From the UHGV virus genome UHGV-0311442: a stretch of 64,000 nucleotides of DNA. One strand, given 5' to 3'. A program made the translations under genes and the position numbers. The first letter of the stretch is position 1, and each line of letters begins with the position of its first letter. The notes below the pieces were generated by a model. It had not been told where the DNA came from, made no database searches, and saw nothing but the letters and a program-made list of their open reading frames with translations. Below, piece after piece: positions 23,385 through 54,568 of the stretch. Origin of the DNA: a virus.

Positions 23385-23404
23385 AATTCACTCCTAAAGA
23401 ATGT

Positions 23405-23429
23405 CTCACGTAGATAATATCTGTCTGAC
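23405..23429 (-). promoter_or_regulatory. Promoter-like motif, class B (minus orientation: GTCAGACAGATATTATCTACGTGAG)
   Basis: The AGATATTATC core sits exactly 28 nt upstream of the ATG at 23384, the same core and spacing as at 32521-32545. It lies in a divergent intergenic region. Confidence 0.45.
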
Positions 23430-23455
23430 TTCTTTTTGAAATTGAGGTAGTAAGA

Positions 23456-25261: not shown

Positions 25262-25535
25262 TGTCTACCGCCTTACGTAAATTGGATAACGTTTCTGCTT
25301 CAAGCAGGTCAATCCAGTAGCTAATAGCTTCCGTGTTTTCAGGAAGTTCGGAACGTACTGGCGCATACCCGTAACGCACTAATAGATTCGAGTAATACTC
25401 AGCGACCTTTAAACAAAAAGATTCCAGATCGGGAAACGGAAGAGTGAAGGCTTCACGAAATTCGGCCGCTGTTTCTAAATTAACACTTGCCAATCCTTCA
25501 CTTAAGCGTTCCACAATCTCCGTTTGATAACGCAT
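25236..25535 (-). CDS. Hypothetical protein
   Basis: Track ORF of 99 aa with an ATG after CTAAGGAG. It overlaps the next gene by 26 nt. Confidence 0.5.
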   Translation of the reverse strand: MRYQTEIVERLSEGLASVNLETAAEFREAFTLPFPDLESFCLKVAEYYSNLLVRYGYAPVRSELPENTEAISYWIDLLEAETLSNLRKAVDNETRTSTA

Positions 25536-25549
25536 GATGACTCCTTAGG

Positions 25550-25573
25550 TCGGGTAGGGTAATCCCTACCCGA
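25550..25573. other. Intercistronic hairpin (tcgggtaggg/ccctacccga)
   Basis: 10-bp stem with loop taat, between the UvsX-like gene and the next minus-strand gene. The T-run (tatttatttcttttt) lies on the plus-strand side only. Confidence 0.5.
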
Positions 25574-25579
25574 GCCTAT

Positions 25580-27076: not shown

Positions 27077-27091
27077 TTAGCGCTCCGATAA

Positions 27092-27391
27092 TTAACGATT
27101 CTTGGTCGGAAGAAGGAGACGGCGGTTGTGCCAGAATTCAAAGTAGGTTTCTACCCACTCAGTAACTTCTTCCGCATTTTCAGGATAAGGGTTTTCAATA
27201 GACTCGAAACGGCGTTTGTTACGCTCGTCAATTTCCAGTTCCATAACACGTTTACCGCTCGGGCACGACGTTACGCTCAAGACTTTTCCAACTTGAATAG
27301 GCTTACCGTTCTGACCTTTTTTAACTGGGGACAGATAAATTTCCGGTTCTAAACGCGGTGTGGTGTTTCGAGTCAGTAATTTGATTTTCAT
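27092..27391 (-). CDS. Hypothetical protein
   Basis: Track ORF of 99 aa with an ATG start. It is the first gene of the minus-strand unit after the divergent region 27392-27489. Confidence 0.55.
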   Translation of the reverse strand: MKIKLLTRNTTPRLEPEIYLSPVKKGQNGKPIQVGKVLSVTSCPSGKRVMELEIDERNKRRFESIENPYPENAEEVTEWVETYFEFWHNRRLLLPTKNR

Positions 27392-27454
27392 CGAGCTTTA
27401 CCTTTATGGAAGAGTCTCGGTCATAAGGTTTGGGTGAACTGTAAAAAGACTTTA

Positions 27455-27479
27455 CTATGTAACCCTGACTTATAATCCG
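27455..27479 (-). promoter_or_regulatory. Weak variant of the class B promoter-like motif (minus orientation: CGGATTATAAGTCAGGGTTACATAG)
   Basis: Resembles AGATATTATCCAGGTGTAAC at 32521-32545 but the core differs. It lies upstream of the minus-strand gene starting at 27391. Confidence 0.25.
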
Positions 27480-27489
27480 AGGTTTTAGA

Positions 27490-28245
27490 ATGAATGTAAA
27501 TCCACTTGCAGCGTTATCTAGCTTCGCCGCTAAAGCGTCTGCAATCTTACCGAAAGGGTTTAGCGGCCCTCAACAAGAGATTGCATTAACCACTTATGAC
27601 GAGATGTCGGACGTTTCCAAGTGGATGCAACAAGAAAAATTCCTACACTTTGCGGGAATGTTGGTTATCGTTCCACCAGGGTTTAATACCTACGTGATGG
27701 ATCATTTGAACCGCTTAGAATCTGTATGGAGTTCACTACAAAACATCTATACGGGTATTCTGCTACCGGTCGATAAACAACTTTCGGCCCTTACACATGA
27801 TGTGGGGGTACTGTCATTACCGATTGGTTTCCGTTACAAAAACGTTAATTTGCCGTTACGTAATGTTAACCCGAAAGACCTGGTTAACTTATTAGCGAAA
27901 TCGTACACTAATAACGTTATTGACCAGCGACCAATTGAGAAGACGTACCACAGCGCGTCTGAGATTGACGTTGCGTTCAATCGTGCTAAAGCCCTGAACG
28001 TTGAAATCACAAAACGTCTACGGACGAACATCGACAAGTCAATCGAGTCCATTCGCACTACGTCAGAAATCTTGTCCGAACAAAACATTCATCCGAATGT
28101 AGCAAAAGAACTGACGATGATGTTAGATTTTGCATCCGATTGGGTGGAGCTGTTTGGTTTGTTCATGAAACAGGTTAACGAGTTAATCGAATGTCTGAAC
28201 GTTACTGCCGAACGCTTAAAAGCGCTTAAGGCAAACAAAAAATAA
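27490..28245 (+). CDS. Hypothetical protein
   Basis: Track ORF of 251 aa with an ATG after GAGG. It ends at a bidirectional terminator. Confidence 0.6.
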   Translation: MNVNPLAALSSFAAKASAILPKGFSGPQQEIALTTYDEMSDVSKWMQQEKFLHFAGMLVIVPPGFNTYVMDHLNRLESVWSSLQNIYTGILLPVDKQLSALTHDVGVLSLPIGFRYKNVNLPLRNVNPKDLVNLLAKSYTNNVIDQRPIEKTYHSASEIDVAFNRAKALNVEITKRLRTNIDKSIESIRTTSEILSEQNIHPNVAKELTMMLDFASDWVELFGLFMKQVNELIECLNVTAERLKALKANKK

Positions 28246-28255
28246 AAAAGTAAAG

Positions 28256-28290
28256 TTACCCCTAGACCACACGGTCTAGGGGTAAACTAT
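28256..28290. terminator. Bidirectional hairpin terminator between convergent genes
   Basis: 13-bp stem ttacccctagacc/ggtctaggggtaa with loop acac. An A-run lies upstream and a T-rich run downstream. Confidence 0.75.
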
Positions 28291-29190
28291 TTATTTCCCA
28301 CGATAAAATCCAGAAATGTAACTCGGCGCTATCCATCGCCATTCGCGCCAGCGCATTTCTGACATTTTACCACACCATACACGCTTCCAATGCGCACGAC
28401 GGATATGTGCGGCGCAATAAATCGCCAAACAAACCTCGTGTCCTTCCTTGCGTTGCTGCTCTATATCTTCCCATTGTACCGGACTTACGTCTAAAACGAC
28501 TGCTTCACTACGTGGGCGAATTTCTGTATCAGGAACATAACGAATGGACCTTCCGCGAAATTCTTTTTTCTCGCGCTCAGTTCGTTTAATTCGTGATGAA
28601 AGATATAACCCGATGTAGACGGCGTCGAGTAGTCGCTGATTCTCCTTAACCGAAGTAAGGAGCGGCTTTAACTCCACGAAATCATCATTACTTTTATCGA
28701 TCGTGTAAATCTCAAACTCCATGTATACCGACTCGTCATGTTCTTCGCATGACATCACAAAGAGAACTTCTTCACCTTCGTAAAGACGTCTTCCGATAAA
28801 TAACGTGATCGGACATTCGTCGAGATTTACGGTAACCGAGAAAGTAAATGAAGGGATGGTTTCTATCCAGAAGTACGGGATATTTTTTAGTCTCTCAGTT
28901 TTTGCTAAGAGTGCCATCAGTTCTTCATCCGAGATGATTTCAACAGCAGCGTATTGCCATCCTAGTCCCAGGGACTGCTTAATCAGTCTGGGAATCTGTT
29001 CGGTAACGCCATACTCACGATAGGTCGGATCTTTAACTGGCATAAACGTTACAGGTATTTGACGTTTATGCTCGTTAATGAACCGAATAAAGCGGCACTG
29101 ATCCAATCCGTGAATTGTTTGGTGTGCCTTTTCTATCTGTTCGCTCATGCGTCTTAGCGCTTTCCCGTAAAGTCTATTATTCGTTGTCAT
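28291..29190 (-). CDS. Hypothetical protein; paralog of 29216..30142 with a conserved basic/Trp-rich C-terminus
   Basis: The track ORF extends to 29286. I prefer the ATG at 29190 (MTTNNRLYGK...) after TTTAGGAGC, which removes the overlap with the upstream gene. The C-terminus is AAHIRRAHWKRVWCGK...WRWIAPSYISGFY. Confidence 0.6.
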   Translation of the reverse strand: MTTNNRLYGKALRRMSEQIEKAHQTIHGLDQCRFIRFINEHKRQIPVTFMPVKDPTYREYGVTEQIPRLIKQSLGLGWQYAAVEIISDEELMALLAKTERLKNIPYFWIETIPSFTFSVTVNLDECPITLFIGRRLYEGEEVLFVMSCEEHDESVYMEFEIYTIDKSNDDFVELKPLLTSVKENQRLLDAVYIGLYLSSRIKRTEREKKEFRGRSIRYVPDTEIRPRSEAVVLDVSPVQWEDIEQQRKEGHEVCLAIYCAAHIRRAHWKRVWCGKMSEMRWREWRWIAPSYISGFYRGK

Positions 29191-29215
29191 TTTAATGCTC
29201 CTAAACACTTTTAGC

Positions 29216-30142
29216 TTAATTGTGGGGTACGTAGCCACGGACAAATGTCGGTGGAATCCAGTAAAGTTTTCTCTTCCTTTCACCATTTCTAGGACCGACC
29301 CAATATCTGCGCCAGTGCGCGCGACGAATATGTGCGGCCTTGGCGTGTTTGATACCTTCCATGGTTTTCAAGTCAGTGTTAAACCCTTTTAGATAATTCA
29401 CTTGTCCTGGCGTGATATCTATCTTAACATCGCGTTCACGAGGTTTAACGTCGTAACTAATACTACCGTTCTTTTTGATTTCCTTGAACTTAATATCATT
29501 AAAAGACTCCCTGTAATTAGGCGGGATTAGCGTACAGAGAAATATCAACGATATGGCGGTTTTGGCCAGTGATAGCCATAACGTCTTCTCTTGTTCGGTC
29601 TGTACGCCAGTTGTATAATCGATTTCAACAAGCCCGTTTCCAACACTACATATCTCTAACGAGCAGGTGGCGATCGTGGTAACGCCTTCTGTTAACCCGT
29701 AATCAGTATTTGTAGCAATTATAATAAACCTTCTATTCCCATTTTTTCGATAACCGAGAAAGAAAGTCTCATCTTCTTTACCTACATCGATTGCTACAGT
29801 CCAAGTAGGTATAAAGTCTAACCACTCTTCAGGGAATTTACTGGGCATCTCAGTCTCGAAAACAAGTTCTCTAAGTGCTCGATTGGATATTAAGGAAGCG
29901 CCCCCGTATAGCCATCCAATTGCCAATGTTTGTGCGTGAAGGGAACGGGGATCTTTGAGACCTAACTCAGCGTCGTATGGTATAAAGGCATTAGTTAAAT
30001 GCTTACGATTCTTTTTTATCCATTTCGAGACGGGATTTTCTTTTGTTTGATTTTCTTCCATGACATTTTCTAGATGCTGACTCCCCATTTGTCTAAGGCA
30101 GTCTTTAATACCTTTTACTTTTTTACTTTTGTACAAATACAT
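29216..30142 (-). CDS. Hypothetical protein; paralog of 28291..29190
   Basis: Track ORF of 308 aa. The C-terminus AAHIRRAHWRRYWVGPRNGERKRKLYWIPPTFVRGY and internal blocks (LAIGWLYGGASLIS, FIPTWTVAIDVG) match the downstream paralog. Confidence 0.6.
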   Translation of the reverse strand: MYLYKSKKVKGIKDCLRQMGSQHLENVMEENQTKENPVSKWIKKNRKHLTNAFIPYDAELGLKDPRSLHAQTLAIGWLYGGASLISNRALRELVFETEMPSKFPEEWLDFIPTWTVAIDVGKEDETFFLGYRKNGNRRFIIIATNTDYGLTEGVTTIATCSLEICSVGNGLVEIDYTTGVQTEQEKTLWLSLAKTAISLIFLCTLIPPNYRESFNDIKFKEIKKNGSISYDVKPRERDVKIDITPGQVNYLKGFNTDLKTMEGIKHAKAAHIRRAHWRRYWVGPRNGERKRKLYWIPPTFVRGYVPHN

Positions 30143-30164
30143 GGTATATTCTCCTAAAATGGTT

Positions 30165-30196
30165 AAAAATAAAGTTACCCTAGCCGAAGCTAGGGT
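30165..30196 (-). terminator. Rho-independent terminator (minus strand)
   Basis: Stem accctagc/gctagggt with loop cgaa. The minus strand continues aactttattttt. Confidence 0.7.
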
Positions 30197-30201
30197 GTCT
30201 A

Positions 30202-30690
30202 TTAGTCGATTTTGACGTAATCAGGATAATTAGCTTTTAGCCACTCCCACAGGTGCAGCGCGAGCATACCCTGGTCGTAACTAATGATTTCCACAATACC
30301 GTGTGAGTGTGCTTCATTACTCCAAATTTGACTATAGAAACGACGCCACTCACCTTCTGCATAAGGTAGCACAGTTCCTGGGATAAAACCGTTGTGGTAT
30401 TCGTTAATTAGCGATTGTAAAGTTTCAATGCGGATTCCGTATAATCGGCTATCGATGAACGATTTTGTAATCCCACCAAAGAAACCAACAAAGAAATTAT
30501 CCAGATTCATCATAAGTCTGGATCTGTAATTACCTACAATGTAGTCGGCGGCTGCCGCAGCCATCCACGGAGTATCGACGACTCTTGGCGTCAGTTTATC
30601 GTGGATTGTTGTACGTACACGGACGGTGTGGTTAAGAAATTCATGAATCATGTCGGAGTTTTTCAAAGCGATTATCTGATTTAAGTTCAT
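30202..30690 (-). CDS. Hypothetical protein
   Basis: Track ORF of 162 aa with an ATG start, 1 nt after the upstream stop. Confidence 0.6.
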   Translation of the reverse strand: MNLNQIIALKNSDMIHEFLNHTVRVRTTIHDKLTPRVVDTPWMAAAAADYIVGNYRSRLMMNLDNFFVGFFGGITKSFIDSRLYGIRIETLQSLINEYHNGFIPGTVLPYAEGEWRRFYSQIWSNEAHSHGIVEIISYDQGMLALHLWEWLKANYPDYVKID

Positions 30691-30691
30691 T

Positions 30692-31216
30692 TTATTGTCC
30701 TAATATTGGGGTGAGTCTGTCTGCGGTGTTTAACAACGCTTTTGTAATTTCGTAGTCGGTTTCTTTCAGGATGGCGATACAAACGGTGATGTAAACTTCG
30801 ATTGCTAACATGATTTCTTGTTCGGACAGCAACGGTTCGGTACCGCCAATCCCGTAACGCTGCGCCGCATACTCAATTTCAAGTTTCAAACGTTTCCATA
30901 ATGCCTTGTCGTCGGTTAAACGTGCACAGGCACGATCAAAACGTCTTTTATAAACGCCGATCTTGTGGTCAATTTCACGACGCAGTTGGTCGGCTGCTAC
31001 GCCATCATCAAGAGTGATGGTGACATTGTCAACTAAACAGTAATGCACTGTGTGTCGTAAGTTGTGTAATGTGGCGACAGTAACGACCCGCTCCTGATGG
31101 TCGCTAAAGCCGTGAGCACCACAGAGCTTGCGTGCAACCGCGCCAGAGATTTTCTCCTCTAGCGCTATCGGTGTGGCAATGGTTGTTTTCTTACGAAGCT
31201 GAATTAAAATATCCAC
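30692..31216 (-). CDS. Hypothetical protein
   Basis: Track ORF of 174 aa with a GTG start 7 nt after AAAGGAG. Confidence 0.6.
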   Translation of the reverse strand: MDILIQLRKKTTIATPIALEEKISGAVARKLCGAHGFSDHQERVVTVATLHNLRHTVHYCLVDNVTITLDDGVAADQLRREIDHKIGVYKRRFDRACARLTDDKALWKRLKLEIEYAAQRYGIGGTEPLLSEQEIMLAIEVYITVCIAILKETDYEITKALLNTADRLTPILGQ

Positions 31217-31218
31217 GA

Positions 31219-31761
31219 TTATACTCCTTTAGGTTGACCGTATTTTGATGACAGGTAGATGAGCTCAGCATGGCAGACTTTCTCAACTAACCCGAGTGTC
31301 TCAAGGAAAATATCCCGGATACGGGACATTGTTTCGTTGGTAAGAATATCGCTCCAACACGTTGTGTCTATTATATCCGTCGTTGAAGATTGTCGCTGCA
31401 ATATGGCGACATATACCTCGTCGAGGGTATCTGGAGCATTATTCTGTAAGTAATGCGCGGCATGTAGAAAGGCTTTCTCAAGAATCAGGTGAATATCCGT
31501 ATCAGGATCAGTTACCCGCACTAAATGTGGGTATGTCATGGCCGAATGGATTTTTCGTTCTAACTGTTCAATGAGATTATTCACCATCGCTTCTGAATCC
31601 AGGATAGTAATTTCGGCCCCACTGTGTTCTTCAGAAATCTTGTTCTCATGTACTGCTATCGCGTCGTGCAGTTCAAACGCAACGCGGCTACGCATCTCAC
31701 TTAACAGTTTGTTTAATTTACCCCGTGACTCGCTGAGTGAGAAATCGATAAGTATTTTCAT
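31219..31761 (-). CDS. Hypothetical protein
   Basis: The track ORF starts at a GTG at 31791 and would overlap the upstream gene. The ATG at 31761 (MKILIDF...) directly follows the upstream stop. The start is uncertain. Confidence 0.5.
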   Translation of the reverse strand: MKILIDFSLSESRGKLNKLLSEMRSRVAFELHDAIAVHENKISEEHSGAEITILDSEAMVNNLIEQLERKIHSAMTYPHLVRVTDPDTDIHLILEKAFLHAAHYLQNNAPDTLDEVYVAILQRQSSTTDIIDTTCWSDILTNETMSRIRDIFLETLGLVEKVCHAELIYLSSKYGQPKGV

Positions 31762-31762
31762 G

Positions 31763-32500
31763 TTAATAGCCCTGATAAATGATGTCGTCACGGTCTTTAC
31801 GTAACTGGCAGTATGTTACGTCAGCACCGTTAGGGATTTGTACGCCAGCGTCTTCAAGATAAATAACACCAGTCTGATTACAGAAATAAAAAGACCACAA
31901 GTACGGATTGCCTTGACAACTGTTTTCACGATGATCGAAGGGCCAATAACCGCGATACAATTCGTCGTAATCGCCGCGCTCGATACCAAAAGCAATCATT
32001 TCTTTTTCCCACAATCTGCTTTCGGCGTCGTAAATCGAAAACCAGAAACCGACGAGGTTCTTTGTCCGTTTAACGTTCATTAAGTCGTTATAAATGGGGA
32101 AGAGTGCTTTATTGAAACTTTCTAACATCTCTGGAGAGAGTAGAAAGTTCACGTAGTATTCTAGCCATTGATAAACGGCTTCCCAGACATCTTCAGAAGA
32201 GAAATGCTCGAATACGGCGTCATCACAATCGTAGTTATCGAAGACCCCTGAGAGATCTATTATGACGTCGCGAAGGTCAAAGTTTCGGTTGGTATTGACA
32301 GCCTCAATAACTTCGGAGATAAGACGAGTAAAGACGTTTGTGCAGGCAGTCTGTGCGGTATAAAAGAATTCTCCTTGTGCGGTTGACCACTTCGGGTCCT
32401 TCAAATGTTCATTGAAGTATTGTGGCCAAATTTTATAAAAGATTCCCTCGAACAACGAGGGATTGATACGTTGTAATTGAGGGACATAAACTTTTAGCAT
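31763..32500 (-). CDS. Hypothetical protein
   Basis: Track ORF of 245 aa. The ATG lies 28 nt downstream of AGATATTATC, with a TGGAG SD. Confidence 0.6.
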   Translation of the reverse strand: MLKVYVPQLQRINPSLFEGIFYKIWPQYFNEHLKDPKWSTAQGEFFYTAQTACTNVFTRLISEVIEAVNTNRNFDLRDVIIDLSGVFDNYDCDDAVFEHFSSEDVWEAVYQWLEYYVNFLLSPEMLESFNKALFPIYNDLMNVKRTKNLVGFWFSIYDAESRLWEKEMIAFGIERGDYDELYRGYWPFDHRENSCQGNPYLWSFYFCNQTGVIYLEDAGVQIPNGADVTYCQLRKDRDDIIYQGY

Positions 32501-32520
32501 TTTAATAACTCCAATGGTGT

Positions 32521-32545
32521 TACACCTGGATAATATCTATCTAAG
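32521..32545 (-). promoter_or_regulatory. Promoter-like motif, class B (minus orientation: CTTAGATAGATATTATCCAGGTGTA)
   Basis: The AGATATTATC core sits exactly 28 nt upstream of the ATG at 32500. The TAG stop of the upstream gene forms the 5' end of the motif. Confidence 0.45.
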
Positions 32546-33205
32546 AATATTTTTAGCGAAAAAAGGATCGACTGTAAACTCCTTCACCTGTGAGTCATAA
32601 CCCGAATGTATTTGATCGCTACTGAGCAAATACTGGTCTAAATCGTGCGGAAGAATCCAAGAATCGCCTTGCTTAAAAATACCATAATCTGCTGTTCCTG
32701 CGGAAAAAATGATTTCCTCTGGAAACGAATAGATGTGGCGTAAGGCAAGATCGGATGGCTTTAACACGATTAATCGAACGGGATGTTGACTGACTGCCTC
32801 TTTAATAAACTGTTCACGATTAAACCAAATTATTTTTTCGGGGTAAGTTTCGAATTCAGCCCATGTCCGCGTGATAACTAATTTGGAAATCTTTCTCAAT
32901 TCTTCAGAATGCTCTGCGTAGCCAATACACTCCTTGCGTACTTCATGATTTTCTACCGATGCTGTGAATTTTTGGAATAGGTGTTGTTGGAAAAAGCCGT
33001 TCTCCGGGATATCACAACCCGCGTTGTATAGTGCAATGATCTCCCACAACAACGAAAGAGAAAACACAAATGCTAACTTTTCCACCACTTCCCAATCTTC
33101 GGAGTAAGGGGCTTTAAAGCCCCAATACTGCCGTGCGTTATACATAAAGTGAGTTTGTAAAAACCGGGGGGCTTTTGACAAGACCTCACTATAAACGATC
33201 AGCAT
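32537..33205 (-). CDS. Hypothetical protein
   Basis: Track ORF of 222 aa. The ATG overlaps the 3' end of the RNase H gene by 7 nt. Confidence 0.6.
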   Translation of the reverse strand: MLIVYSEVLSKAPRFLQTHFMYNARQYWGFKAPYSEDWEVVEKLAFVFSLSLLWEIIALYNAGCDIPENGFFQQHLFQKFTASVENHEVRKECIGYAEHSEELRKISKLVITRTWAEFETYPEKIIWFNREQFIKEAVSQHPVRLIVLKPSDLALRHIYSFPEEIIFSAGTADYGIFKQGDSWILPHDLDQYLLSSDQIHSGYDSQVKEFTVDPFFAKNILR

Positions 33206-34719
33206 TCAAGCTCCTTATCCGTCAGTATTCGTTTGTTTGAATAATAGCCGCACCACAACCCATGATATTTTTCCCCGATATAAACCAACGCATATTCGAT
33301 ATACTGCCGTTCTGGACGCCGTACCGCCACGTAGAAACGCCCTTCTGGTTCTTTCATACGGTTGATTTCCGTACGCGTCGGTATGTCGATACCACGAGTA
33401 AGGATAGTTTTAACCTTGTTTTTGCTACCAGGGATATGGATAGTTACGTCAAAACCTTTATCTACATTACGATAAAAGTCTTTCTTCGGCTTACCCTTCT
33501 CATCGTAAAGCAGGTCAGTAATGTCGTTCATTACGACTGAGTTTTTCCCCTCCATGGCATCGCGTAACCAACCTGCAAGCTCATCACGAATCGTAATGCA
33601 GCGATAAGACAATAACGCGGGACGAAGAATTCGTGTAATCGAAAGATCTTCAAACATCCATAGGTTTTTGTCTTCGCTAAAATGCATCCGATCGACAGGA
33701 ATACCGTTAGCTGCGGCTTCTGCGAACTTCTTACGTTTTACGAATAAGTTAAAAACAACGGCGATGGGATCAAACTGACGTAAACGGGGCACCCCTTCCC
33801 ATGCTTTCGCAGAGTGGGTATTTACCAACTCGTATACGTTGTTCCATGGTTCTTTGGTAAACATTACGCAGAATTGTGCGTCTGGAATGTACTTACCAAC
33901 GAAGACGATATCGTCCTTCTGTTTTGCATGGTTCCCACCGAACATGTAATAAAGTTTATTACCGTTAACTGTAACCGTGGGATGCGGTTCGTTCACCATC
34001 GGGTAACAGAACTTCGTAACACAGATATCGGGAAAAGCAGACAAATTGACACCTTCACCAACAACTTCTGGTTGCTGTTCTTCCTCAGGCATCTCGTCTT
34101 TTGACCAATACGGTGTATAGTCTAGCCCCTCACCTCGAGCCGAGATACTTGAACCTTTCCGTGCTAACTCGTCGGCACGCTCGTTTCCATAACGCCCTGA
34201 GTGACCTTTAATTTTAAGGACACGAACGCCTTTCCCTTCTTTCTTTAACCGCTGTTTAACCTCCCACATCCGTTGGATTAATTCCAAATTCGCAATGGGT
34301 GTGCCGTCCGCACGACGCCAGCCGCGTGCTGCCCAACCATCAATCCAATCGTTATACGTGTTGACAACGTAAGATGCGTCGATATAGATAACATAGTTTT
34401 TGGCAACGAAAGGGGCGTGTTCGAAGACGGTCAGGAAAGCCACGAGTTCTGCAACGTCGGAGTGTGACATTTTTGGTACAGGCACAACACCGTCAATAAA
34501 CTCCACGGTTTCTGGTAAAGGTGGAAGTTTTTCATCCTTGTTTATCTGGCGGTATCCTGACGTCGTAATCCCCTCGGGAATAGAGGGATGGCGGTAAACC
34601 CGACCATCCTCAATCGTTTCACGATTAAATAAGTATCCATGAATCCCCGCTCCTGTACCGAGCGGGGAGGTCAAATGGCTACCATCCGTGTAAATTACTG
34701 CAACATCAACGTTCTTCAT
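33199..34719 (-). CDS. RNase HI domain protein fused to a ~300-aa C-terminal domain of unknown function
   Basis: Track ORF of 506 aa. The N-terminal ~200 aa carry RNase HI motifs: VIYTDGS, AELVAFL, IYIDASYVVNTYNDWIDGWAARGW, KIKGHSGRYGNERADELARKG. The remaining ~300 aa match nothing I recognise. Confidence 0.75.
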   Translation of the reverse strand: MKNVDVAVIYTDGSHLTSPLGTGAGIHGYLFNRETIEDGRVYRHPSIPEGITTSGYRQINKDEKLPPLPETVEFIDGVVPVPKMSHSDVAELVAFLTVFEHAPFVAKNYVIYIDASYVVNTYNDWIDGWAARGWRRADGTPIANLELIQRMWEVKQRLKKEGKGVRVLKIKGHSGRYGNERADELARKGSSISARGEGLDYTPYWSKDEMPEEEQQPEVVGEGVNLSAFPDICVTKFCYPMVNEPHPTVTVNGNKLYYMFGGNHAKQKDDIVFVGKYIPDAQFCVMFTKEPWNNVYELVNTHSAKAWEGVPRLRQFDPIAVVFNLFVKRKKFAEAAANGIPVDRMHFSEDKNLWMFEDLSITRILRPALLSYRCITIRDELAGWLRDAMEGKNSVVMNDITDLLYDEKGKPKKDFYRNVDKGFDVTIHIPGSKNKVKTILTRGIDIPTRTEINRMKEPEGRFYVAVRRPERQYIEYALVYIGEKYHGLWCGYYSNKRILTDKELEC

Positions 34720-34721
34720 TC

Positions 34722-35456
34722 TTAATCCCTGGTTAATTGATCACGAATCTGCGGCGCAACATACTCGCCAGTTTTCAGTTCTTCGTGACAGGCTTTGGCG
34801 CGTTCAAACCCGTATTGGCGGGTGACCAAAGCGAGGTGATAAATACGTGCCGTAGTGTAGGCTTCTTTTGCTGCATCCCACATTGCGTGGTGCTCAAAAG
34901 CGGGCTTACCGCGCGTCCAATAAACTTGCTCTACCGTTAAGTCGGGTTCGAAACCAAACGCAAAAGCTAAACGCTCTGCGGTACGATCGCTATCTAACGC
35001 GCTAAATTTACGGAACTTCCCTGGCGGGATATCGCATTGTGCGAATGCGTTCATGAAAACCGGCGCATCGAAGTCGGGACCGCGCATGGTAATAACAAAC
35101 TCATGCTTTGCGGTGATCTCTCCGAGCCATTTTTGCATCGCCCACAGCGCGTCTGGCAATGCTGTTGTTCCACCCCAGGCTTCTTCATACGCTTCACGAG
35201 ATGGTGCGTATTCGGGTTCACCTTTACCTTCCCACCAACCAACGGTTTGTGGGTCTTCGTGGAAAATGGCTTTTGCTTTAGGATCGTTAGGATCAATACG
35301 GATGTATGAAGAACCGACCATTTTCAAGGTAGGGACGTCAAAAGCCACTAAACCTGCACTCAACAGATAAGCATCAGGACGTAACGATTTGGTTTCTGCA
35401 TCAGCACCAATAACCAGTGTCGGTGTGTACGGGGTGACAATTTTTGGGTAGGTCAT
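34722..35456 (-). CDS. DEDDh-type 3'-5' exonuclease (Rv2179c-like/DnaQ-like fold)
   Basis: Track ORF of 244 aa. Motifs: VIGADAETKSL (DxE), MRGPDFDAPVFMNAF, HHAMWDAAKEAY (H-x4-D). Confidence 0.6.
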   Translation of the reverse strand: MTYPKIVTPYTPTLVIGADAETKSLRPDAYLLSAGLVAFDVPTLKMVGSSYIRIDPNDPKAKAIFHEDPQTVGWWEGKGEPEYAPSREAYEEAWGGTTALPDALWAMQKWLGEITAKHEFVITMRGPDFDAPVFMNAFAQCDIPPGKFRKFSALDSDRTAERLAFAFGFEPDLTVEQVYWTRGKPAFEHHAMWDAAKEAYTTARIYHLALVTRQYGFERAKACHEELKTGEYVAPQIRDQLTRD

Positions 35457-35500
35457 GTTGAATTCTCCTGTTAGTCTACATTAAAATAGTCGTAAACGTT

Positions 35501-35542
35501 AAAAAGAAAGACCCTCCTGTACCACGAAAGGGTACAGGAGGG
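35501..35542 (-). terminator. Rho-independent terminator (minus strand)
   Basis: 12-bp stem ccctcctgtacc/ggtacaggaggg. The minus strand continues tctttcttttt. Confidence 0.75.
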
Positions 35543-35546
35543 AGTG

Positions 35547-36002
35547 TCAGTACAAACACGATGTCAAGTATTGGTTATACGAATCGAGCAGTGTCTGACG
35601 GTCGGAACGGTAATTCCACAACAAATTATTGAGTTTACGCGATAAATCACGGCTAATCTCTTGGGGCGTTAAAGAACTTTCATCAAGAGATAAGCGTTCA
35701 GGTACAACATGTAACTTCGGTAACTCATAACGTTCACAAAGTGGAGCCAGCATTGGTGGGCTCCAGCCACGTTTAACGGCTTGTTGGTTTAAATTTCGGG
35801 TGTAGACATAAACGTAGTAAGCATAGGTGTTGACATCCGCAACATACTCACGCATTGCATTATTGTCAATTTTCCAATTCACCATTATTGGCGGTGTAGG
35901 AGGAAGTTCCAGTGGCCTATAAGCTGGACGTTTAACTTCGTCGCCGTAGCTATTACTCACCAACCCCACGAACACCATCATGATGAATAACAGCATTTTC
36001 AT
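35547..36002 (-). CDS. Secreted (signal-peptide) protein with a Pro-rich mature N-terminus
   Basis: The track ORF starts at a TTG at 36005. The ATG at 36002 (MKMLLFIMMVFVGLVSNSYG/DEV) lies 6 nt after AAGGAG. There is no lipobox Cys. Confidence 0.55.
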   Translation of the reverse strand: MKMLLFIMMVFVGLVSNSYGDEVKRPAYRPLELPPTPPIMVNWKIDNNAMREYVADVNTYAYYVYVYTRNLNQQAVKRGWSPPMLAPLCERYELPKLHVVPERLSLDESSLTPQEISRDLSRKLNNLLWNYRSDRQTLLDSYNQYLTSCLY

Positions 36003-36005
36003 CAA

Positions 36006-36509
36006 TCACTCCTTAGAAGACGTTAGCGTCTTTATGATCTCCTGTCGAAAACTGTTCGCATTTAAATTGCCAACAGGTCTCGCCGAAGCCTCTTTACGTT
36101 GTTCTGGTGTTGAAGCTGGATTAACAGGAGTTTCTGGTTTTGTCGAAGACAGATCCTTCGCCGTACCGCTCGCTTTCGATGAATTAAACGTGCTTTCATA
36201 TGGCGGTTTCTGGCCGAGGCAAACGAAGAGCCTGTCGTATAACTTCCCATTATCTTCTTTTAGTTTATCTCGATCTTGTTTCATCTCTTGGTAAGACTGC
36301 GACATATAAGTGTCATGAGACTGCACTGCAACGAGCGCGTGAAACTGTTGTACATAGGCGTAGGAGACGAAGCCAGAATACGACAACAAGATCGTGATGA
36401 TTAAAGTCATTATCTTGCTTGCTCTTGATACGTTTTCTCCTTCTCCTGGTTTAAATGCTTCCATTAACATCTGAAGGAAGAACGGAAGCACTTTAAAAAA
36501 TGAACCCAT
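36006..36509 (-). CDS. Membrane protein with a TM segment followed by a coiled-coil-like region
   Basis: Track ORF of 167 aa. The hydrophobic segment IMTLIITILLSYSGFVSYAYV is followed by QEMKQDRDKLKEDNGKLYDRL. The gene directly abuts the downstream signal-peptide gene. Confidence 0.55.
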   Translation of the reverse strand: MGSFFKVLPFFLQMLMEAFKPGEGENVSRASKIMTLIITILLSYSGFVSYAYVQQFHALVAVQSHDTYMSQSYQEMKQDRDKLKEDNGKLYDRLFVCLGQKPPYESTFNSSKASGTAKDLSSTKPETPVNPASTPEQRKEASARPVGNLNANSFRQEIIKTLTSSKE

Positions 36510-36534
36510 TGCTCACCTCGGAGTATTTTTAATT

Positions 36535-37908
36535 ATGTTAGACTTACAAGGTTTTATTCAGATACCGGCACTGTTTGACAATCAGGACGGCGTCACCGCT
36601 CCGGTGGGCGAGCTGTCGGATTTGACACTCTCGTACGCGAAGAGTAAACAGACGTTTACTAAAACCAATTTGCAAGTTCAATTGGTGACTTTTACGTCTA
36701 AACGAGAAAAACAGACGGTTGTTGTGCCAGCCGAGTTTTCTGATCATATTCTAACCGTTTCTCAATGGATTTACCAGCAAGCCATCTTGGGGAATCTGAG
36801 AAATGACGAACTCGAATTCCAGCGCCTGTTATTAGGCCAATTCCAATCAACCATTTCTGGTGTTCAGTCTGGTGCGATGATACAGACGAACAGTAACTGG
36901 TTCCCACGTTGGGTGAGCTGGAAATATGAAGTAACGGCAGATCAAGTACAAGATGACACTGATGTAGATAATCAGATCATTGTTTGGTTCTCGGATGAAG
37001 ACTTCGATCAAGATTACACAGGGTTCGAAATCGAAGTACAGATGCCGATTTCACCAATCGACACATTTTTGTCGACCAAGTCAGTCGTTGAAAAGGCGAT
37101 GGAAGGGTTTAACCTTACCGAACACCATAAGAAAATCAATGAGTTAATGGCAGGGTTTCCTTACACCGCTATCCAAACCAACTACTATACTTGGCACGAT
37201 CAAGAAAACTACGAGTCCACCCTAGTTGTCCCAATGTCGGTTATTATTTACGGACGTGCGGGGAAAAACCCAACGAAAATAAAGCAGGCGTTGCGAGAAC
37301 ATATTCTCGCTAATTCCAGCTTTACTGTCCCTGTCGGGGTAAAAGTATTTCCCGAGATTTTCACTACCACGAAATTTACAATTGTTCCCGGATGGAAAAT
37401 TCGTGGAATACCCAATGAGGAAGATGTGGCGGCGCTTTATTCCCCCATCCTTCCATATGATTTCTGGGTCAAAGCTATCAGTCGGTTTGGAGAATGGGCA
37501 GACCTGACGGTAGCAGAAAGAAATACTAAAACGATCAGTAAACCTACAACAGACGTAACTGACTTACCAACAGTTTATAAATCATTAAACTGTGTTGTAA
37601 TCAGTGGGCCGGAAAACGATACACGGAAAGCGACCTTACACGAAACTATCCCGGATTATGCGTTAATTGCGACGACTAACCCTGATATTGCGCGTATGTC
37701 GAAAACAACGACCGAATGGTTGGCGTTATTCTTCCAGGCACTTATTGCTGCGGAAGAATACCACCCGTATCAAACCAGCTTAGATGTTGTAAAACTGGTC
37801 GATGAGGCCGACCCTGATAACTACTTCTGGGTGTTTGAATACGACAACGTAGAATATCGTATCCTGTCTCGGAAAGCGAAATGGTACACCGAGTTAGACG
37901 AGGAGTAA
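36535..37908 (+). CDS. Hypothetical protein (possibly structural)
   Basis: Track ORF of 457 aa with an ATG start. Its start is only 25 nt from the divergent start at 36509. Confidence 0.6.
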   Translation: MLDLQGFIQIPALFDNQDGVTAPVGELSDLTLSYAKSKQTFTKTNLQVQLVTFTSKREKQTVVVPAEFSDHILTVSQWIYQQAILGNLRNDELEFQRLLLGQFQSTISGVQSGAMIQTNSNWFPRWVSWKYEVTADQVQDDTDVDNQIIVWFSDEDFDQDYTGFEIEVQMPISPIDTFLSTKSVVEKAMEGFNLTEHHKKINELMAGFPYTAIQTNYYTWHDQENYESTLVVPMSVIIYGRAGKNPTKIKQALREHILANSSFTVPVGVKVFPEIFTTTKFTIVPGWKIRGIPNEEDVAALYSPILPYDFWVKAISRFGEWADLTVAERNTKTISKPTTDVTDLPTVYKSLNCVVISGPENDTRKATLHETIPDYALIATTNPDIARMSKTTTEWLALFFQALIAAEEYHPYQTSLDVVKLVDEADPDNYFWVFEYDNVEYRILSRKAKWYTELDEE

Positions 37909-37911
37909 TGA

Positions 37912-38535
37912 ATGGCTACGCGTTTACCACTCCAGGTACCGGTCAACACCACGGGACTGTTCAAAGTAAAAACACCATTTACTTTGGCCGAGACGGTCAT
38001 TTATACGGTAGAAGCGTCACGTACCTTCCCAGATTTAGTACGTCAGAATATTGACGTTTATAACTCGTATTACCAGCCAGTAGGGCTAGGACGTGAAGAA
38101 TATTTAGCAGATGCGAATGTTAGTGCGTCGATTCTGACATTTAAATCTCGGGACGGTCAAGTTGTATATATACCTGACACCTACCTGGAATCATACCCAG
38201 GTTTATCCGGGATCACGTATCAACGAAATGTGTTAGTGGTAGATTTGGCACTGGTACCGGATTACGTGAAAGTGTCGTCTATAACAAAAGACGTTTCAGA
38301 TATTCTCACGCATACACTAGGGATTGAGCCGAAAGTTGAAATTACAACACTCGAGTATGAGGGGAAGGTAACGGAGGAACAACACTTGCAGATGGAAGCG
38401 GCACGAAAAAATAAAATTCGTGAATCTATTCCATTAGGTGAGAAAGTTGCTGCGTTGACAGAAGAGAACAAAAAATTAAAAGAGTTAAACAACCAAATGT
38501 TAGAGATTCTTAAAGCTAACGGGTTAGTTAATTAA
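37912..38535 (+). CDS. Hypothetical protein with a C-terminal coiled coil
   Basis: Track ORF of 207 aa with an ATG after GAGGAG. It ends at a bidirectional terminator. Confidence 0.6.
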   Translation: MATRLPLQVPVNTTGLFKVKTPFTLAETVIYTVEASRTFPDLVRQNIDVYNSYYQPVGLGREEYLADANVSASILTFKSRDGQVVYIPDTYLESYPGLSGITYQRNVLVVDLALVPDYVKVSSITKDVSDILTHTLGIEPKVEITTLEYEGKVTEEQHLQMEAARKNKIRESIPLGEKVAALTEENKKLKELNNQMLEILKANGLVN

Positions 38536-38577
38536 AAAAGATTACCCTACTCCTTCGGGAGTAGGGTAGCTTTTATT
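38534..38577. terminator. Bidirectional hairpin terminator, CCCTACTCC family
   Basis: Stem taccctactcc/ggagtagggta with loop ttcg. An A-run lies upstream and gcttttatttt downstream. Confidence 0.8.
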
Positions 38578-39129
38578 TTAAATGTCGACTTCTAGTTTAC
38601 GGTAATCGATGACGCCTTGAGCAATCATAGCAGCAACATCGTTCCAAGTACGAAAAATGAAGTAAACGGTATCCCCGTTTAAATAGATATTGGATTCTTT
38701 ATCCGGGAAATCATCTTCACTGAGGTAGTAGTAGGGTTTGTCGAATGGGAAGTCACGTTCATCAGAGGAACCAAGTACCGCATAACGATTGCCACAATCA
38801 AACAGAATCTTCCAACCAGACATTTCACTATTAGCGTCAATACGATCGTCGATTTCAACGGTAATAGGAGAATGATCAAGAAAGCTGATTGTAACCTCCC
38901 CGTTATGTTGTCGTTTGAATCGATGAATATCTGTAGGCACAATTTCAGATGCTGCTATAAGGGAATAAAGTTGCGTTACGGTGATCTTTTTGTAAACACT
39001 ATCGCCATCCCACAAACGATCAAATAAGAAATTAGCCAGGAAATTTATATCCTTTAAACGTGAACGGAAAACAGAGCCACGACGAATACCGTAAGCCAGA
39101 TGAGTTAAATATTCAGACGATGGAAACAT
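38578..39129 (-). CDS. Hypothetical protein; paralog of the N-terminal part of 39192..40124
   Basis: Track ORF of 183 aa. MFPSSEYLTHLAYGIRR... and NGDTVYFIFRTWNDVAAMI correspond to MTFPSEVIYELANTLRR... and NGGVVYFILSNWSHVSYVL. Confidence 0.6.
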   Translation of the reverse strand: MFPSSEYLTHLAYGIRRGSVFRSRLKDINFLANFLFDRLWDGDSVYKKITVTQLYSLIAASEIVPTDIHRFKRQHNGEVTISFLDHSPITVEIDDRIDANSEMSGWKILFDCGNRYAVLGSSDERDFPFDKPYYYLSEDDFPDKESNIYLNGDTVYFIFRTWNDVAAMIAQGVIDYRKLEVDI

Positions 39130-39147
39130 TTTAATACTCCTAAGGTG

Positions 39148-39184
39148 GAAAAAAGAATTAACCCTACTCCCGGAGGAGTAGGGG
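39148..39184 (-). terminator. Rho-independent terminator (minus strand), CCCTACTCC family
   Basis: Stem ccctactcc/ggagtaggg with loop cgga. The minus strand continues ttaattctttttt. Confidence 0.75.
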
Positions 39185-39191
39185 ATTTAAA

Positions 39192-41928: not shown

Positions 41929-42010
41929 TTTGTTTCTCCAGTTGGATTTATACATTTCCGTATTCCGTAAGACGAAATGACGGCGCGGACAGCTAATACT
42001 CCTTTGTTGT

Positions 42011-42035
42011 GTGCCCTAATGATAATATCTATTTA
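42011..42035 (-). promoter_or_regulatory. Promoter-like motif, class B (minus orientation: TAAATAGATATTATCATTAGGGCAC)
   Basis: Same TAGATATTATC core as 32521-32545, again beginning with the TAG stop of the upstream gene. It lies upstream of the SLT gene. Confidence 0.4.
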
Positions 42036-42526
42036 AAAGAGTTTGGAATTAATGACTCTGCTTCTCGGTACAGCTTATCGGGTAAGTATAACGTGTAGTG
42101 TTGTCTCCTCGGTTCAAGTTTTTTGTAAAGCCACAAAAAGATTTCTTGTCTTTCCCAGGAATCTAACCACCCATTTGCCATCCCCAGTGGAGGGATAGCA
42201 ACGCTGGTATCCAGTTCCTCAACACAATCTGCTAATGCGGTAATGCCCGCAGTAACATAAGAAACCTGGGACTTTAAACGCCAATGTGTTTTCGTTGGGA
42301 GCAAGATGCACTTTTCATCAGGGTAAACGTAAACGCTTCCAATCTTAATTTCGTCTTCGCGACACCGCTTACGGTAATCTTGATAAAGGTTGGGGTAGCG
42401 TTCACGGCACGCCAGTGCAATACCGCGACCCATCGCTCCTACGCAGTTAATGGTAACGACTTTATAGTCTTCGGGCGCATTAAAAAGATCGTTACCAATT
42501 TCAGATTCTTTACGTACCGTTAACAT
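42029..42526 (-). CDS. Macrodomain protein, DarG/TARG1-like class (ADP-ribose hydrolase-like)
   Basis: The track ORF starts at a TTG at 42589. The ATG at 42526 (MLTVRKE...) is preferred but uncertain. VVTINCVGAMGRGIALACRERYPNLYQDYRKRC...LLPTKTHWRLKS...VAIPPLGMANGWLDSW matches by eye the DarG-type pattern NTVGVMGKGIALQFK..FP..Y..Y...C...NFPTKxHWRxxS...SxAxPxLGCGxGGLxW. Confidence 0.7.
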   Translation of the reverse strand: MLTVRKESEIGNDLFNAPEDYKVVTINCVGAMGRGIALACRERYPNLYQDYRKRCREDEIKIGSVYVYPDEKCILLPTKTHWRLKSQVSYVTAGITALADCVEELDTSVAIPPLGMANGWLDSWERQEIFLWLYKKLEPRRQHYTLYLPDKLYREAESLIPNSFK

Positions 42527-50183: not shown

Positions 50184-50230
50184 TGTTTTGCTCCTTTATG
50201 GCGTTAATGTATAAAGAGTTAATCGTAACT

Positions 50231-50257
50231 CTCACCTAAGTAATATATATCTGAAAT
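50231..50257 (-). promoter_or_regulatory. Promoter-like motif, class A (minus orientation: ATTTCAGATATATATTACTTAGGTGAG)
   Basis: Near-identical to 54517-54543. It lies directly downstream (minus sense) of terminator 50276-50308 and ~50 nt upstream of the ATG at 50183. The upstream flank is AT-rich. Confidence 0.5.
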
Positions 50258-50275
50258 TATTTTTAATATTAACGA

Positions 50276-54487: not shown

Positions 54488-54516
54488 TAGGGACTGAACT
54501 GGTACTTCAGTCCCTA
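54488..54516 (-). other. 11-bp hairpin (tagggactgaa/ttcagtcccta) immediately downstream (minus sense) of promoter-like motif 54517-54543
   Basis: Read directly from the sequence. It would form the 5' end of a minus-strand transcript. Confidence 0.55.
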
Positions 54517-54543
54517 TTCACTTAAGTAAAATATATCTGAAAT
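54517..54543 (-). promoter_or_regulatory. Promoter-like motif, class A (minus orientation: ATTTCAGATATATTTTACTTAAGTGAA)
   Basis: Near-identical to 50231-50257. It points toward the paralog array but lies ~270 nt upstream of its first ATG (54248). Confidence 0.45.
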
Positions 54544-54568
54544 CAATTCCGATCTAAGGAACGTCCCG

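What the first reader, a model, noticed from the sequence alone, without database searches (positions are those of the whole stretch)
32521..32545. Class B promoter-like motif: (T/C)AGATATTATC at fixed 28-nt distance from start codons
The decamer AGATATTATC (minus orientation) occurs at 23422-23413, 32538-32529 and 42030-42021.

At the first two sites it is followed by (T/C)A(C/G)GTG and lies exactly 28 nt upstream of an ATG (23384 and 32500), with a GGAG SD in between. At the second and third sites the TAG stop codon of the upstream gene forms the first three bases of TAGATATTATC.

A degenerate relative lies at 27455-27479. The shared AGATAT core links this class to class A.

The identical geometry argues for a conserved promoter plus leader module rather than chance.
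Basis: seen in the sequence. Interest (0 to 1): 0.55.

Follow-up and report, generated by a model that had tools for sequence, protein, structure and literature searches.

The report
Jumbo-phage early promoter, OBP/N1M2-type variant
The repeated AGATATTATC is real and is the core of a phage-specific promoter of a kind already described in giant phiKZ-like phages, most likely read by the RNA polymerase the phage carries in its virion, so it is a good annotation but not a new kind of element.

Summary
AGATATTATC occurs exactly three times in the window (0.09 expected). All three copies are on the minus (coding) strand and intergenic. The 28-nt spacing and the TAG overlaps are as described.

The window comes from a jumbo phage with split multisubunit RNA polymerase genes, distantly related to Salmonella phage SPN3US. 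The decamer is the core of a ~32-nt directional motif, AAaaaaTTTCAGATA-GATATTATCT-a.GTGA. This motif matches the predicted early promoter published for jumbo phages N1M2 and OBP.

A matrix trained only on SPN3US finds five sites in the window: three class B and two class A, all on the minus strand. SPN3US has 23 sites, all on the plus strand, 21 of them non-coding. All five window sites have positional counterparts in SPN3US. The site upstream of the gp057-like gene is kept in five further genera, although that protein is only 23-40% identical. In SPN3US and relatives, class B sites head the operons that hold the non-virion RNA polymerase genes.

Not supported: a fixed 28-nt module (spacing is 26-35 nt in relatives), the AGATAT register, and the "degenerate relative" at 27455-27479.

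Verdict: new member of a known kind.

The parts
23406..23437 (-). Class B promoter-like site B1 (core decamer 23413-23422). It lies in the 71-bp divergent gap between the minus gene 22836-23384 and the plus gene 23456-23920. The predicted transcription start is near GTG 23407-23409.
   Evidence: Exact decamer. 33.8 bits with the SPN3US-only matrix. 29/35 match to the N1M2 consensus. Positional ortholog at SPN3US 191607 upstream of gp045, whose protein is 49% identical.
32522..32553 (-). Class B promoter-like site B2 (core decamer 32529-32538), the site in the finding's coordinates. It overlaps the TAG stop of 32537-33205 and lies upstream of 31763-32500. The predicted transcription start is near GTG 32523-32525.
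   Evidence: 28.6 bits. Invariant block, including synonymous positions of the last 8 codons of the upstream gene, in four IMG/VR relatives. Conserved upstream of the orthologous gene in SPN3US, phiEaH2, Asesino, four Machinavirus phages and Wellington; degenerate in Phobos.
42014..42045 (-). Class B promoter-like site B3 (core decamer 42021-42030), the weakest member. It overlaps the TAG stop of 42029-42589 and lies upstream of the transglycosylase gene.
   Evidence: 18.3 bits. Positional ortholog at SPN3US 174959 (GATATTATT) upstream of the gp068 transglycosylase, whose protein is 52% identical.
50232..50263 (-). Class A site A1 (TATATTACT-TAGGTGAGAG), same motif family, upstream of 49722-50183 and a run of small genes.
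   Evidence: 41.6 bits. 30/35 match to the N1M2 consensus. Positional ortholog at SPN3US 165692.
54518..54549 (-). Class A site A2 (TATTTTACT-TAAGTGA), in the 320-bp divergent gap 54249-54568.
   Evidence: 31.1 bits. 30/35. Sequence.
23385..23412 (-). 28-nt spacer and leader of B1, containing the GGAG Shine-Dalgarno sequence before ATG 23384.
32501..32528 (-). 28-nt spacer and leader of B2, containing the GGAG Shine-Dalgarno sequence before ATG 32500.
41948..41992 (-). 14-codon mini-ORF in the B3 leader. It starts with CTG exactly 28 nt after the decamer, follows a GGAG, and its stop overlaps ATG 41955.
   Evidence: The SPN3US counterpart starts with ATG and encodes a similar peptide (MPSAPSSRIGNGKV against LSAPSFRLTEYGNV).
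50214..50233 (-). Hairpin at the predicted 5' end of the A1 transcript. This feature separates class A from class B.
   Evidence: All class A sites in the window and in SPN3US have a 7-11 bp stem here. The arm sequences differ between sites but remain complementary.
54488..54516 (-). Hairpin at the predicted 5' end of the A2 transcript (11-bp stem, -17.3 kcal/mol).

Best explanation
The decamer is the most conserved part of a phage-specific promoter of the phiKZ-family 'early' type. The full element is about 32 nt and directional: an A/T tract, then TTTCAGATA, then the core (G/T)ATATTA(TC/CY), then about 3 nt and GTG.

By analogy with phiKZ, 201phi2-1 and AR9, the AT-rich core lies around position -10. 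It would be recognised by the multisubunit RNA polymerase that the phage carries in its virion and injects with its DNA (vRNAP). Transcription would start about 4-7 nt after the decamer, near the GTG. That gives a short leader of about 22-25 nt holding only the Shine-Dalgarno sequence.

Class B (TTATC) is the version published as the consensus for phages OBP and N1M2. Class A (TTACY plus TAGGTGAGAG plus a 5' hairpin) is the phiKZ/201phi2-1 version. This phage lineage uses both.

Shown here: the motif, its statistics, its strand and position, its conservation, and its match to the published consensus. Inferred: which polymerase reads it, where transcription starts, and its early timing.
For: 1. 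Non-random and positioned. There are 3 exact copies against 0.09 expected. All five family members in the window are non-coding and on the strand of the downstream genes (binomial P about 1e-5).

2. Independent matrix. A matrix trained only on 23 SPN3US sites recovers exactly these five sites at 18-42 bits. With the closely similar matrix, Markov-simulated sequences of window size peak at about 13 bits.

3. Genome-wide census in SPN3US. 23 sites, all on the plus strand, 21 of 23 non-coding (P about 1e-24).

4. Conservation. All five window sites have positional counterparts in SPN3US, although the flanking proteins are only 34-52% identical. The B2 ortholog keeps AGATAGATATTATCT in Seoulvirus, Erskinevirus, Machinavirus and Wellingtonvirus while the flanks diverge completely. 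In close relatives the block is invariant even at synonymous sites of the upstream gene.

5. Match to published consensus. N1M2 is TBYAWWWWWTTTCARRYAKATATTATYWAAGTGWA (31 sites); OBP is nearly the same; phiKZ is TATATTAC (PMC7058600). The window sites match 26-30 of 35 positions.

6. The phage encodes split RNA polymerase beta-like subunits.

7. Functional logic. In SPN3US the non-virion polymerase genes (original gp23, gp34/35, gp77; PMC5105663) are the first or second gene after class B sites at 15712, 28974 and 72689. The site upstream of the gp34 homolog is kept in 7 phages of 3 genera. The genes for the polymerase made during infection must first be transcribed by the injected one (phiKZ paradigm; PMC7598289; PMC13282480).

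8. N1M2's promoter also precedes a polymerase beta subunit gene and a lytic transglycosylase gene, as B3 does here.
Against: There are no transcription start data for this phage or for any SPN3US-like phage, so polymerase assignment, start position and timing rest on analogy.

The OBP and N1M2 promoters are themselves bioinformatic predictions. Only the phiKZ, 201phi2-1 and AR9 early motifs have mapped starts.

Some class B sites precede genes that would not be expected to be early, such as a virion-type transglycosylase.

B3 is weak (18 bits) and lacks the downstream GTG.

The core is an odd palindrome (GATA-T-TATC), which could also serve a DNA-binding protein.
Confidence: 0.75

Rival explanations
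1. Class B is a promoter, but of a different temporal class from class A. It could be delayed-early or middle, read by the non-virion polymerase or by a modified form of the virion polymerase. The TTATC/TTACY difference and the absence of the 5' hairpin would then set timing or strength.
For: The two classes differ consistently. Class A has TTACY, TAGGTGAGAG and a 5' hairpin; class B has none of these. In SPN3US class A heads runs of small unknown genes, while class B heads operons with polymerase, helicase and other large enzyme genes.
Against: Class B sites head the non-virion polymerase genes themselves, so at least those sites cannot depend on that polymerase. In OBP and N1M2 the TTATY form is the only reported early consensus. 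Intermediates exist: SPN3US 4432 is GATATTACC with a hairpin, and Machinavirus has TATATTATC at the gp34 site. Known phiKZ middle and late promoters have almost no upstream consensus.
Confidence: 0.13
2. It is a promoter for the host sigma-70 RNA polymerase, with TATTAT as the -10 hexamer.
For: TATTAT inside the decamer is one mismatch from TATAAT. An A/T tract lies upstream.
Against: The sigma-70 scan reports no site whose second hexamer falls in any of the three decamers, so there is no -35 element at 16-18 nt. Sigma-70-like sites are depleted in the region overall (22 against 34 +/- 5.3). The conserved bases sit immediately upstream (TTTCAGATA) and downstream (GTG) of the core, not at -35. 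Related phages transcribe independently of host polymerase.
Confidence: 0.04
3. The 9-11 bp palindrome (A)GATA-T-TATC(T) is an operator for a dimeric phage DNA-binding protein rather than, or in addition to, a polymerase recognition element.
For: GATATTATC is its own reverse complement except for the centre base. In SPN3US 10 of 10 class B sites extend to the 11-bp palindrome AGATATTATCT. The reverse strand scores 12-17 bits.
Against: Orientation is strictly tied to gene direction (23/23 in SPN3US, 5/5 in the window). The flanks are asymmetric and conserved (A tract and TTTCAGATA upstream, GTG downstream). Two of the three window sites break the 11-bp palindrome (C and A instead of T). Class A sites share the rest of the motif without the palindrome.
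Confidence: 0.05
4. Chance recurrence, or a remnant of a duplicated segment.
For: Only three copies in 64 kb.
Against: 0.09 expected, and 0 of 100 shuffles reach 3. The flanks are unrelated between sites. The motif is conserved at orthologous positions across genera.
Confidence: 0.01

Closest known systems
Predicted early promoters of jumbo phages N1M2 (Klebsiella aerogenes) and OBP (Pseudomonas): TBYAWWWWWTTTCARRYAKATATTATYWAAGTGWA (PMC7058600)
   Same: Same architecture and nearly the same sequence: A/T tract, TTTCARRYA, KATATTATY, then GTG. Window sites match 26-30 of 35 positions. N1M2's promoter also sits before polymerase beta subunit and lytic transglycosylase genes.
   Different: A different phage lineage (SPN3US-like, enterobacterial). 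The window sites tolerate more variation after the core (CAGGTG, ATTAGG). In this lineage the TTATC form coexists with a TTACY form, whereas one consensus is reported for N1M2 and OBP. The N1M2 and OBP promoters are themselves only predicted.
phiKZ / 201phi2-1 early promoters (TATATTAC; AT-rich element centred near -10, read by the virion RNA polymerase)
   Same: Same family of phages with two multisubunit polymerases. The same core is at the same place in the alignment. Class A sites in the window carry TATATTAC or TATTTTAC literally. The number of sites per genome is similar: 23 in SPN3US against 28-32 in phiKZ.
   Different: Class B has G for the first T and TC for the final C. Transcription starts are mapped in phiKZ and 201phi2-1 but not here.
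AR9 early promoters (virion polymerase; uracil-containing genome)
   Same: A conserved AT-rich element of about 10 nt near -10, upstream of early operons.
   Different: Different sequence, uracil-containing DNA, a phage that does not form a nucleus-like compartment, and a distant lineage.
Bacterial sigma-70 -10 element (TATAAT)
   Same: AT-rich hexamer-like core (TATTAT).
   Different: No -35 partner. The conserved positions lie elsewhere. The scan finds no sigma-70-type site at these positions.

Membership tests
phiKZ-family jumbo-phage early promoter (virion RNA polymerase) | The genome belongs to a phage that encodes split multisubunit RNA polymerases. | tested here: met
   The window encodes two RNA polymerase beta-like subunits (phrog_2986, phrog_3233). 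They are orthologous in position to SPN3US virion polymerase subunits gp240 and gp218. The window is syntenic with SPN3US at about 158-215 kb.
phiKZ-family jumbo-phage early promoter (virion RNA polymerase) | A highly conserved AT-rich core of about 10 nt from the TATATTAC / KATATTATY family, with an upstream T/A-rich element. | tested here: met
   26-30 of 35 positions match the published N1M2 consensus. 18-42 bits with a matrix trained on another genus.
phiKZ-family jumbo-phage early promoter (virion RNA polymerase) | Located in non-coding DNA upstream of operons, on the strand of the downstream genes; a few tens of sites per genome. | tested here: met
   Window: 5/5 non-coding, 5/5 on the minus strand. 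SPN3US: 21/23 non-coding, 23/23 on the plus strand.
phiKZ-family jumbo-phage early promoter (virion RNA polymerase) | Promoter loci conserved relative to homologous genes in related phages. | tested here: met
   All five window sites have positional counterparts in SPN3US. The B2 ortholog is conserved in six genera.
phiKZ-family jumbo-phage early promoter (virion RNA polymerase) | The genes for the non-virion polymerase lie downstream of such promoters. | tested here: inconclusive
   Met in SPN3US (sites 15712, 28974, 72689 before original gp23, gp34/35, gp77) and in 7 relatives for the gp34 homolog. The window itself does not contain these genes, and the close relatives' loci were not retrieved.
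phiKZ-family jumbo-phage early promoter (virion RNA polymerase) | A primary transcript 5' end about 10 nt downstream of the motif centre. | not testable with these tools
   No transcriptome for this phage or for SPN3US-like phages was found in the searchable literature.
phiKZ-family jumbo-phage early promoter (virion RNA polymerase) | Early expression, independent of host polymerase (rifampicin) and of new protein synthesis. | not testable with these tools
   Requires infection experiments.
Sigma-70 promoter | A TTGACA-like -35 hexamer 16-18 nt upstream of a TATAAT-like -10 hexamer. | tested here: not met
   No scan hit has its second hexamer in 23413-23422, 32529-38 or 42021-30.
Palindromic operator of a dimeric regulator | A symmetric site whose function does not depend on orientation. 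| tested here: not met
   Strict orientation with gene direction and asymmetric conserved flanks. The 11-bp palindrome is complete in only 1 of 3 window sites.
phiKZ late promoter (non-virion polymerase) | TATG overlapping the start site, with no upstream conservation. | tested here: not met
   About 30 nt of conserved sequence lie upstream of the predicted start, and there is no TATG after the core. Family definition from PMC7598289.

The most novel reading that the evidence does not exclude
SPN3US-like jumbo phages may run a two-tier early programme from two sub-classes of one promoter family.
- Class A (TTACY-TAGGTGAGAG) always gives a transcript with a 5'-terminal hairpin. It heads runs of small genes of unknown function, which look like host-takeover genes.
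- Class B (TTATC, no hairpin, minimal leader) heads the non-virion polymerase and replication-type operons.

The two would differ in strength, timing or mRNA fate, for example stability or handling of the first transcripts made before the phage nucleus exists.
Probability: 0.3. Interest if true: 0.45.

Novelty: new member of a known kind. Interest (0 to 1): 0.25.

Why it matters
The result gives a ready-made promoter model, a 32-column matrix, for annotating early operons in an uncharacterised enterobacterial jumbo-phage lineage. It also shows that the OBP/N1M2-type and phiKZ-type early motifs are one family that can coexist in one genome.

It has practical value for predicting which genes are expressed first, including the non-virion polymerase genes, and for choosing fragments to test virion-polymerase promoter recognition. 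That recognition mechanism is still unsolved. The finding does not change current understanding of these phages.

Tried and rejected
Only the hits in ~240-kb jumbo-phage contigs were informative.
3. It is only a 9/12 sigma-70-like match.
4. The fixed 28-nt geometry was rejected. Orthologous sites show 26-35 nt, and other SPN3US class B-type sites range from 31 to more than 60 nt.
5. A strict A/B dichotomy based on G/T at core position 1 was rejected, because intermediates exist.
6. Rfam found nothing in the window.
7. The original phiKZ, OBP and AR9-genome papers and the supplementary start-site tables were not held. The offset from motif to start site is therefore taken from review text only.
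8. Searches for the non-virion polymerase gene in the window's own close relatives failed to retrieve those contigs.

Full report
**1. The observation**

AGATATTATC occurs exactly three times in the 64-kb window: at 23413-23422, 32529-32538 and 42021-42030. All three copies are on the minus strand. Dinucleotide-preserving shuffles give 0.09 expected matches, and none of 100 shuffles reaches three. Allowing one mismatch adds nothing meaningful: 6 matches against 3.5 expected.

- Sites 1 and 2 are followed by TACGTG and CAGGTG. Each has exactly 28 nt before an ATG (23384 and 32500), with a GGAG in between.
- At sites 2 and 3 the TAG stop of the upstream ORF overlaps the motif.
- At site 3 there is also a GGAG, and a CTG sits exactly 28 nt after the decamer. 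It opens a 14-codon mini-ORF.

**2. What the window is**

The window has only patchy nucleotide similarity (~73%) to Salmonella phage SPN3US, Erwinia phage Asesino and their relatives. Orthologous proteins are 23-52% identical. The window encodes two RNA polymerase beta-like subunits, a UvsX-like recombinase, an SbcC-like protein and large virion proteins. It is collinear, in reverse orientation, with SPN3US at about 158-215 kb.

It is thus a phiKZ-like jumbo phage with split multisubunit RNA polymerases, from a lineage with no close relative in GenBank. Four IMG/VR contigs of 107-225 kb are close relatives.

**3. The real extent and register of the motif**

I aligned the three sites without gaps against the two 'class A' sites, whose cores start at 50247 and 54533 on the minus strand. 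One register stands out. It gives 129/216 identities, against at most 96/216 for any other shift. In that register AGATATTATC aligns with ATATATTACT, not AGATAT with AGATAT.

All sites share an A/T tract, then T(T/C)AGA(T/C)A, then the core, then about 3 nt and GTG. The consensus from SPN3US sites alone is .AAaaaaTTTCAGATAGATATTATCTa.GTGA.

**4. Genome-wide test in an independent genome**

I fetched the whole SPN3US genome. GATATTATC occurs 12 times there. Ten copies have the extended context and lie just upstream of plus-strand genes.

- A matrix scan finds 23 sites of at least 22 bits, all on the plus strand. The next hits (12-17 bits) are the reverse strands of the palindromic cores.
- 21 of the 23 sites are non-coding, in a genome that is 94% coding (binomial P about 1e-24).
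- A matrix trained on these 23 SPN3US sites alone and applied to the window gives exactly five hits of at least 18 bits, all on the minus strand and all non-coding: 50247 (41.6), 23421 (33.8), 54533 (31.1), 32537 (28.6) and 42029 (18.3). The only other hit above 8 bits is the reverse of the site 1 palindrome (13.5).
- With the closely similar matrix, Markov-simulated sequences of window size peak at about 13 bits.
- Nothing scores at 27455-27479.

**5. Conservation**

All five window sites have positional counterparts in SPN3US:

| Window site | SPN3US position | SPN3US context |
|---|---|---|
| B1 | 191607 | before gp045 |
| B2 | 184049 | before gp057 |
| B3 | 174959 | before the gp068 transglycosylase |
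| A1 | 165692 | before gp086 |
| A2 | the gp093/gp091 gap | site at 161924 |

For B2 I fetched the orthologous intergenic region from eight more phages. AGATAGATATTATCT is intact in phiEaH2, Asesino, four Machinavirus phages and Wellington, and it is degenerate in Phobos. The surrounding sequence is unalignable there. In the four close IMG/VR relatives the block from 25 nt upstream of the decamer to GTGTA is invariant apart from a C-to-T change at the last base of the decamer in two of them. It is invariant even at synonymous positions of the last eight codons of the upstream gene, while neighbouring codons vary freely.

Across these orthologs the spacing from core to ATG is 26-35 nt. The 28 nt seen in the window is therefore not a conserved constant. 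It is the short end of a range, set by a start site just after the core plus a Shine-Dalgarno sequence and its spacer. Apart from GGAG the leaders of the three window sites are unrelated.

**6. Comparison with what is known**

In every jumbo phage that encodes its own polymerases, a conserved AT-rich motif of about 10 nt, centred near -10, precedes early operons. Where transcripts were mapped (phiKZ, AR9, phiR1-37, 201phi2-1), it is the early promoter read by the virion polymerase (PMC7598289; PMC8244752; PMC11512511; PMC10914365).

The paper on Klebsiella phage N1M2 tabulates these consensus sequences (PMC7058600):

| Phage | Published consensus |
|---|---|
| N1M2 | TBYAWWWWWTTTCARRYAKATATTATYWAAGTGWA (31 sites) |
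| OBP | BSHAWWWWWTTTYARRYAKATATTATYWWADTG |
| 201phi2-1 | ...TTTRARR_BTATATTACDWHDGTG |
| phiKZ | TATATTAC |

The window's class B sites are the N1M2/OBP form and its class A sites are the phiKZ/201phi2-1 form. All five match the 35-nt N1M2 consensus at 26-30 positions. N1M2's promoter is reported before polymerase beta subunit, virion protein and lytic transglycosylase genes. B3 here precedes a transglycosylase gene.

**7. Which polymerase**

This step is an inference. The SPN3US virion polymerase subunits are gp42, gp218, gp240, gp241 and gp244. The non-virion polymerase includes gp35 and gp77 (PMC5105663). Protein lengths show that RefSeq locus numbers equal 266 minus the original numbers.

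- The non-virion polymerase genes (RefSeq gp232/231, gp189 and gp243) are the first or second gene after class B-type sites at 28974, 72689 and 15712.
- The site before the gp34 homolog is conserved in seven phages of three genera. In Machinavirus it carries T instead of G at core position 1.
- No site of the family directly precedes a virion polymerase gene, in SPN3US or in the window.

The polymerase made during infection cannot transcribe its own genes first, and related phages do not use the host enzyme. The injected virion polymerase is therefore the most likely reader of class B.

**8. Rival explanations**

- *Host sigma-70 promoter.* A sigma-70 scan finds no site with its -10 hexamer in any decamer. 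Sigma-70-like sites are depleted in the region (22 against 34 +/- 5.3).
- *Palindromic operator.* The core is an odd palindrome, and all ten SPN3US class B sites extend it to 11 bp. However, orientation always follows gene direction, the conserved flanks are asymmetric, two of three window sites break the 11-bp palindrome, and class A lacks it. An orientation-independent operator does not fit.
- *Separate temporal class for class B.* This cannot be excluded, but it is disfavoured by the polymerase-gene argument and by the intermediates.

**9. What separates class A from class B**

The difference is not the G/T at core position 1. It is TTACY plus TA(G/A)GTGAGA plus a 7-11 bp hairpin that begins 2-5 nt after GTG. 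Every class A site in both genomes has this hairpin. The arms differ between sites but stay complementary. Class B sites lack it.

In SPN3US class A heads runs of small genes of unknown function. Whether this reflects a functional subdivision of early transcription is the most novel reading left open.

**10. Verdict**

The promoter interpretation is well supported by position, strand, conservation and match to a published consensus. It is a new member of a known kind, the phiKZ-family early promoter in its OBP/N1M2-type form, in an undescribed SPN3US-like lineage.

The fixed-distance 'module', the AGATAT register and the fourth degenerate site are not supported. The transcription start, the timing and the polymerase remain inferred.

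Noticed in passing
window 50214-50233 and 54488-54516 (minus); SPN3US sites 4432, 56299, 65418, 94244, 113991, 165692, 223282: Every class A promoter is followed, 2-5 nt after GTG, by a 7-11 bp hairpin. The arm sequences differ between sites but stay complementary. This would be a 5'-terminal stem-loop on the predicted early transcripts. Class B sites lack it.
   Followed up: partly
window 54249-54568: Class A site A2 sits in a 320-bp divergent intergenic region and is followed by about 275 nt with no convincing ORF before ATG 54248. This could be a long leader or a small RNA. There is no Rfam match.
   Followed up: partly
window 41928-42020 (minus): The leader after B3 is conserved at DNA level with SPN3US. 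It holds a 14-codon mini-ORF (41992-41948) that starts with CTG here and ATG in SPN3US, with similar peptides. The true start of the transglycosylase gene is probably ATG 41928 (MFRIFF...) rather than 41955, because SPN3US has no ATG at the upstream position.
   Followed up: partly
window 23001-43000: Sigma-70-like promoter matches are fewer than in shuffled sequence (22 against 34 +/- 5.3). This is consistent with a phage that does not rely on the host polymerase.
   Followed up: no
window 38542-38569, 39162-39183, about 19170-19200; also 25550-25573 and 28256-28285: Intrinsic-terminator hairpins reuse a common sequence (TACCCTACTCC-loop-GGAGTAGGGTA). Several are bidirectional. They are typically followed by a T-run and then CCTAAAGGAG before the next ATG. 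This recalls the conserved terminator motif reported for phiKZ.
   Followed up: no
L125-L129 (SPN3US) 94280-94300, 65460-65480, 223320-223340, 23830-23845; L064 (Wellington): The leaders of several SPN3US early-type promoters share an AATCGACTATTA box between the 5' hairpin and the Shine-Dalgarno sequence. It is also seen in Wellington and is absent from the window's sites.
   Followed up: no
window 23385-23455: B1 lies in a 71-bp divergent gap. Because of the palindrome, its reverse strand scores 13.5 bits towards the plus-strand gene 23456-23920, which starts 33 nt away. SPN3US has the same arrangement (17.4 bits towards gp046). Whether the site fires in both directions is unknown.
   Followed up: no
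window, 4 copies of GCCGCTTTATT (minus strand): This is the most over-represented 11-mer in the window. It looks like the 3' half of a terminator stem plus the T-tract.
   Followed up: no
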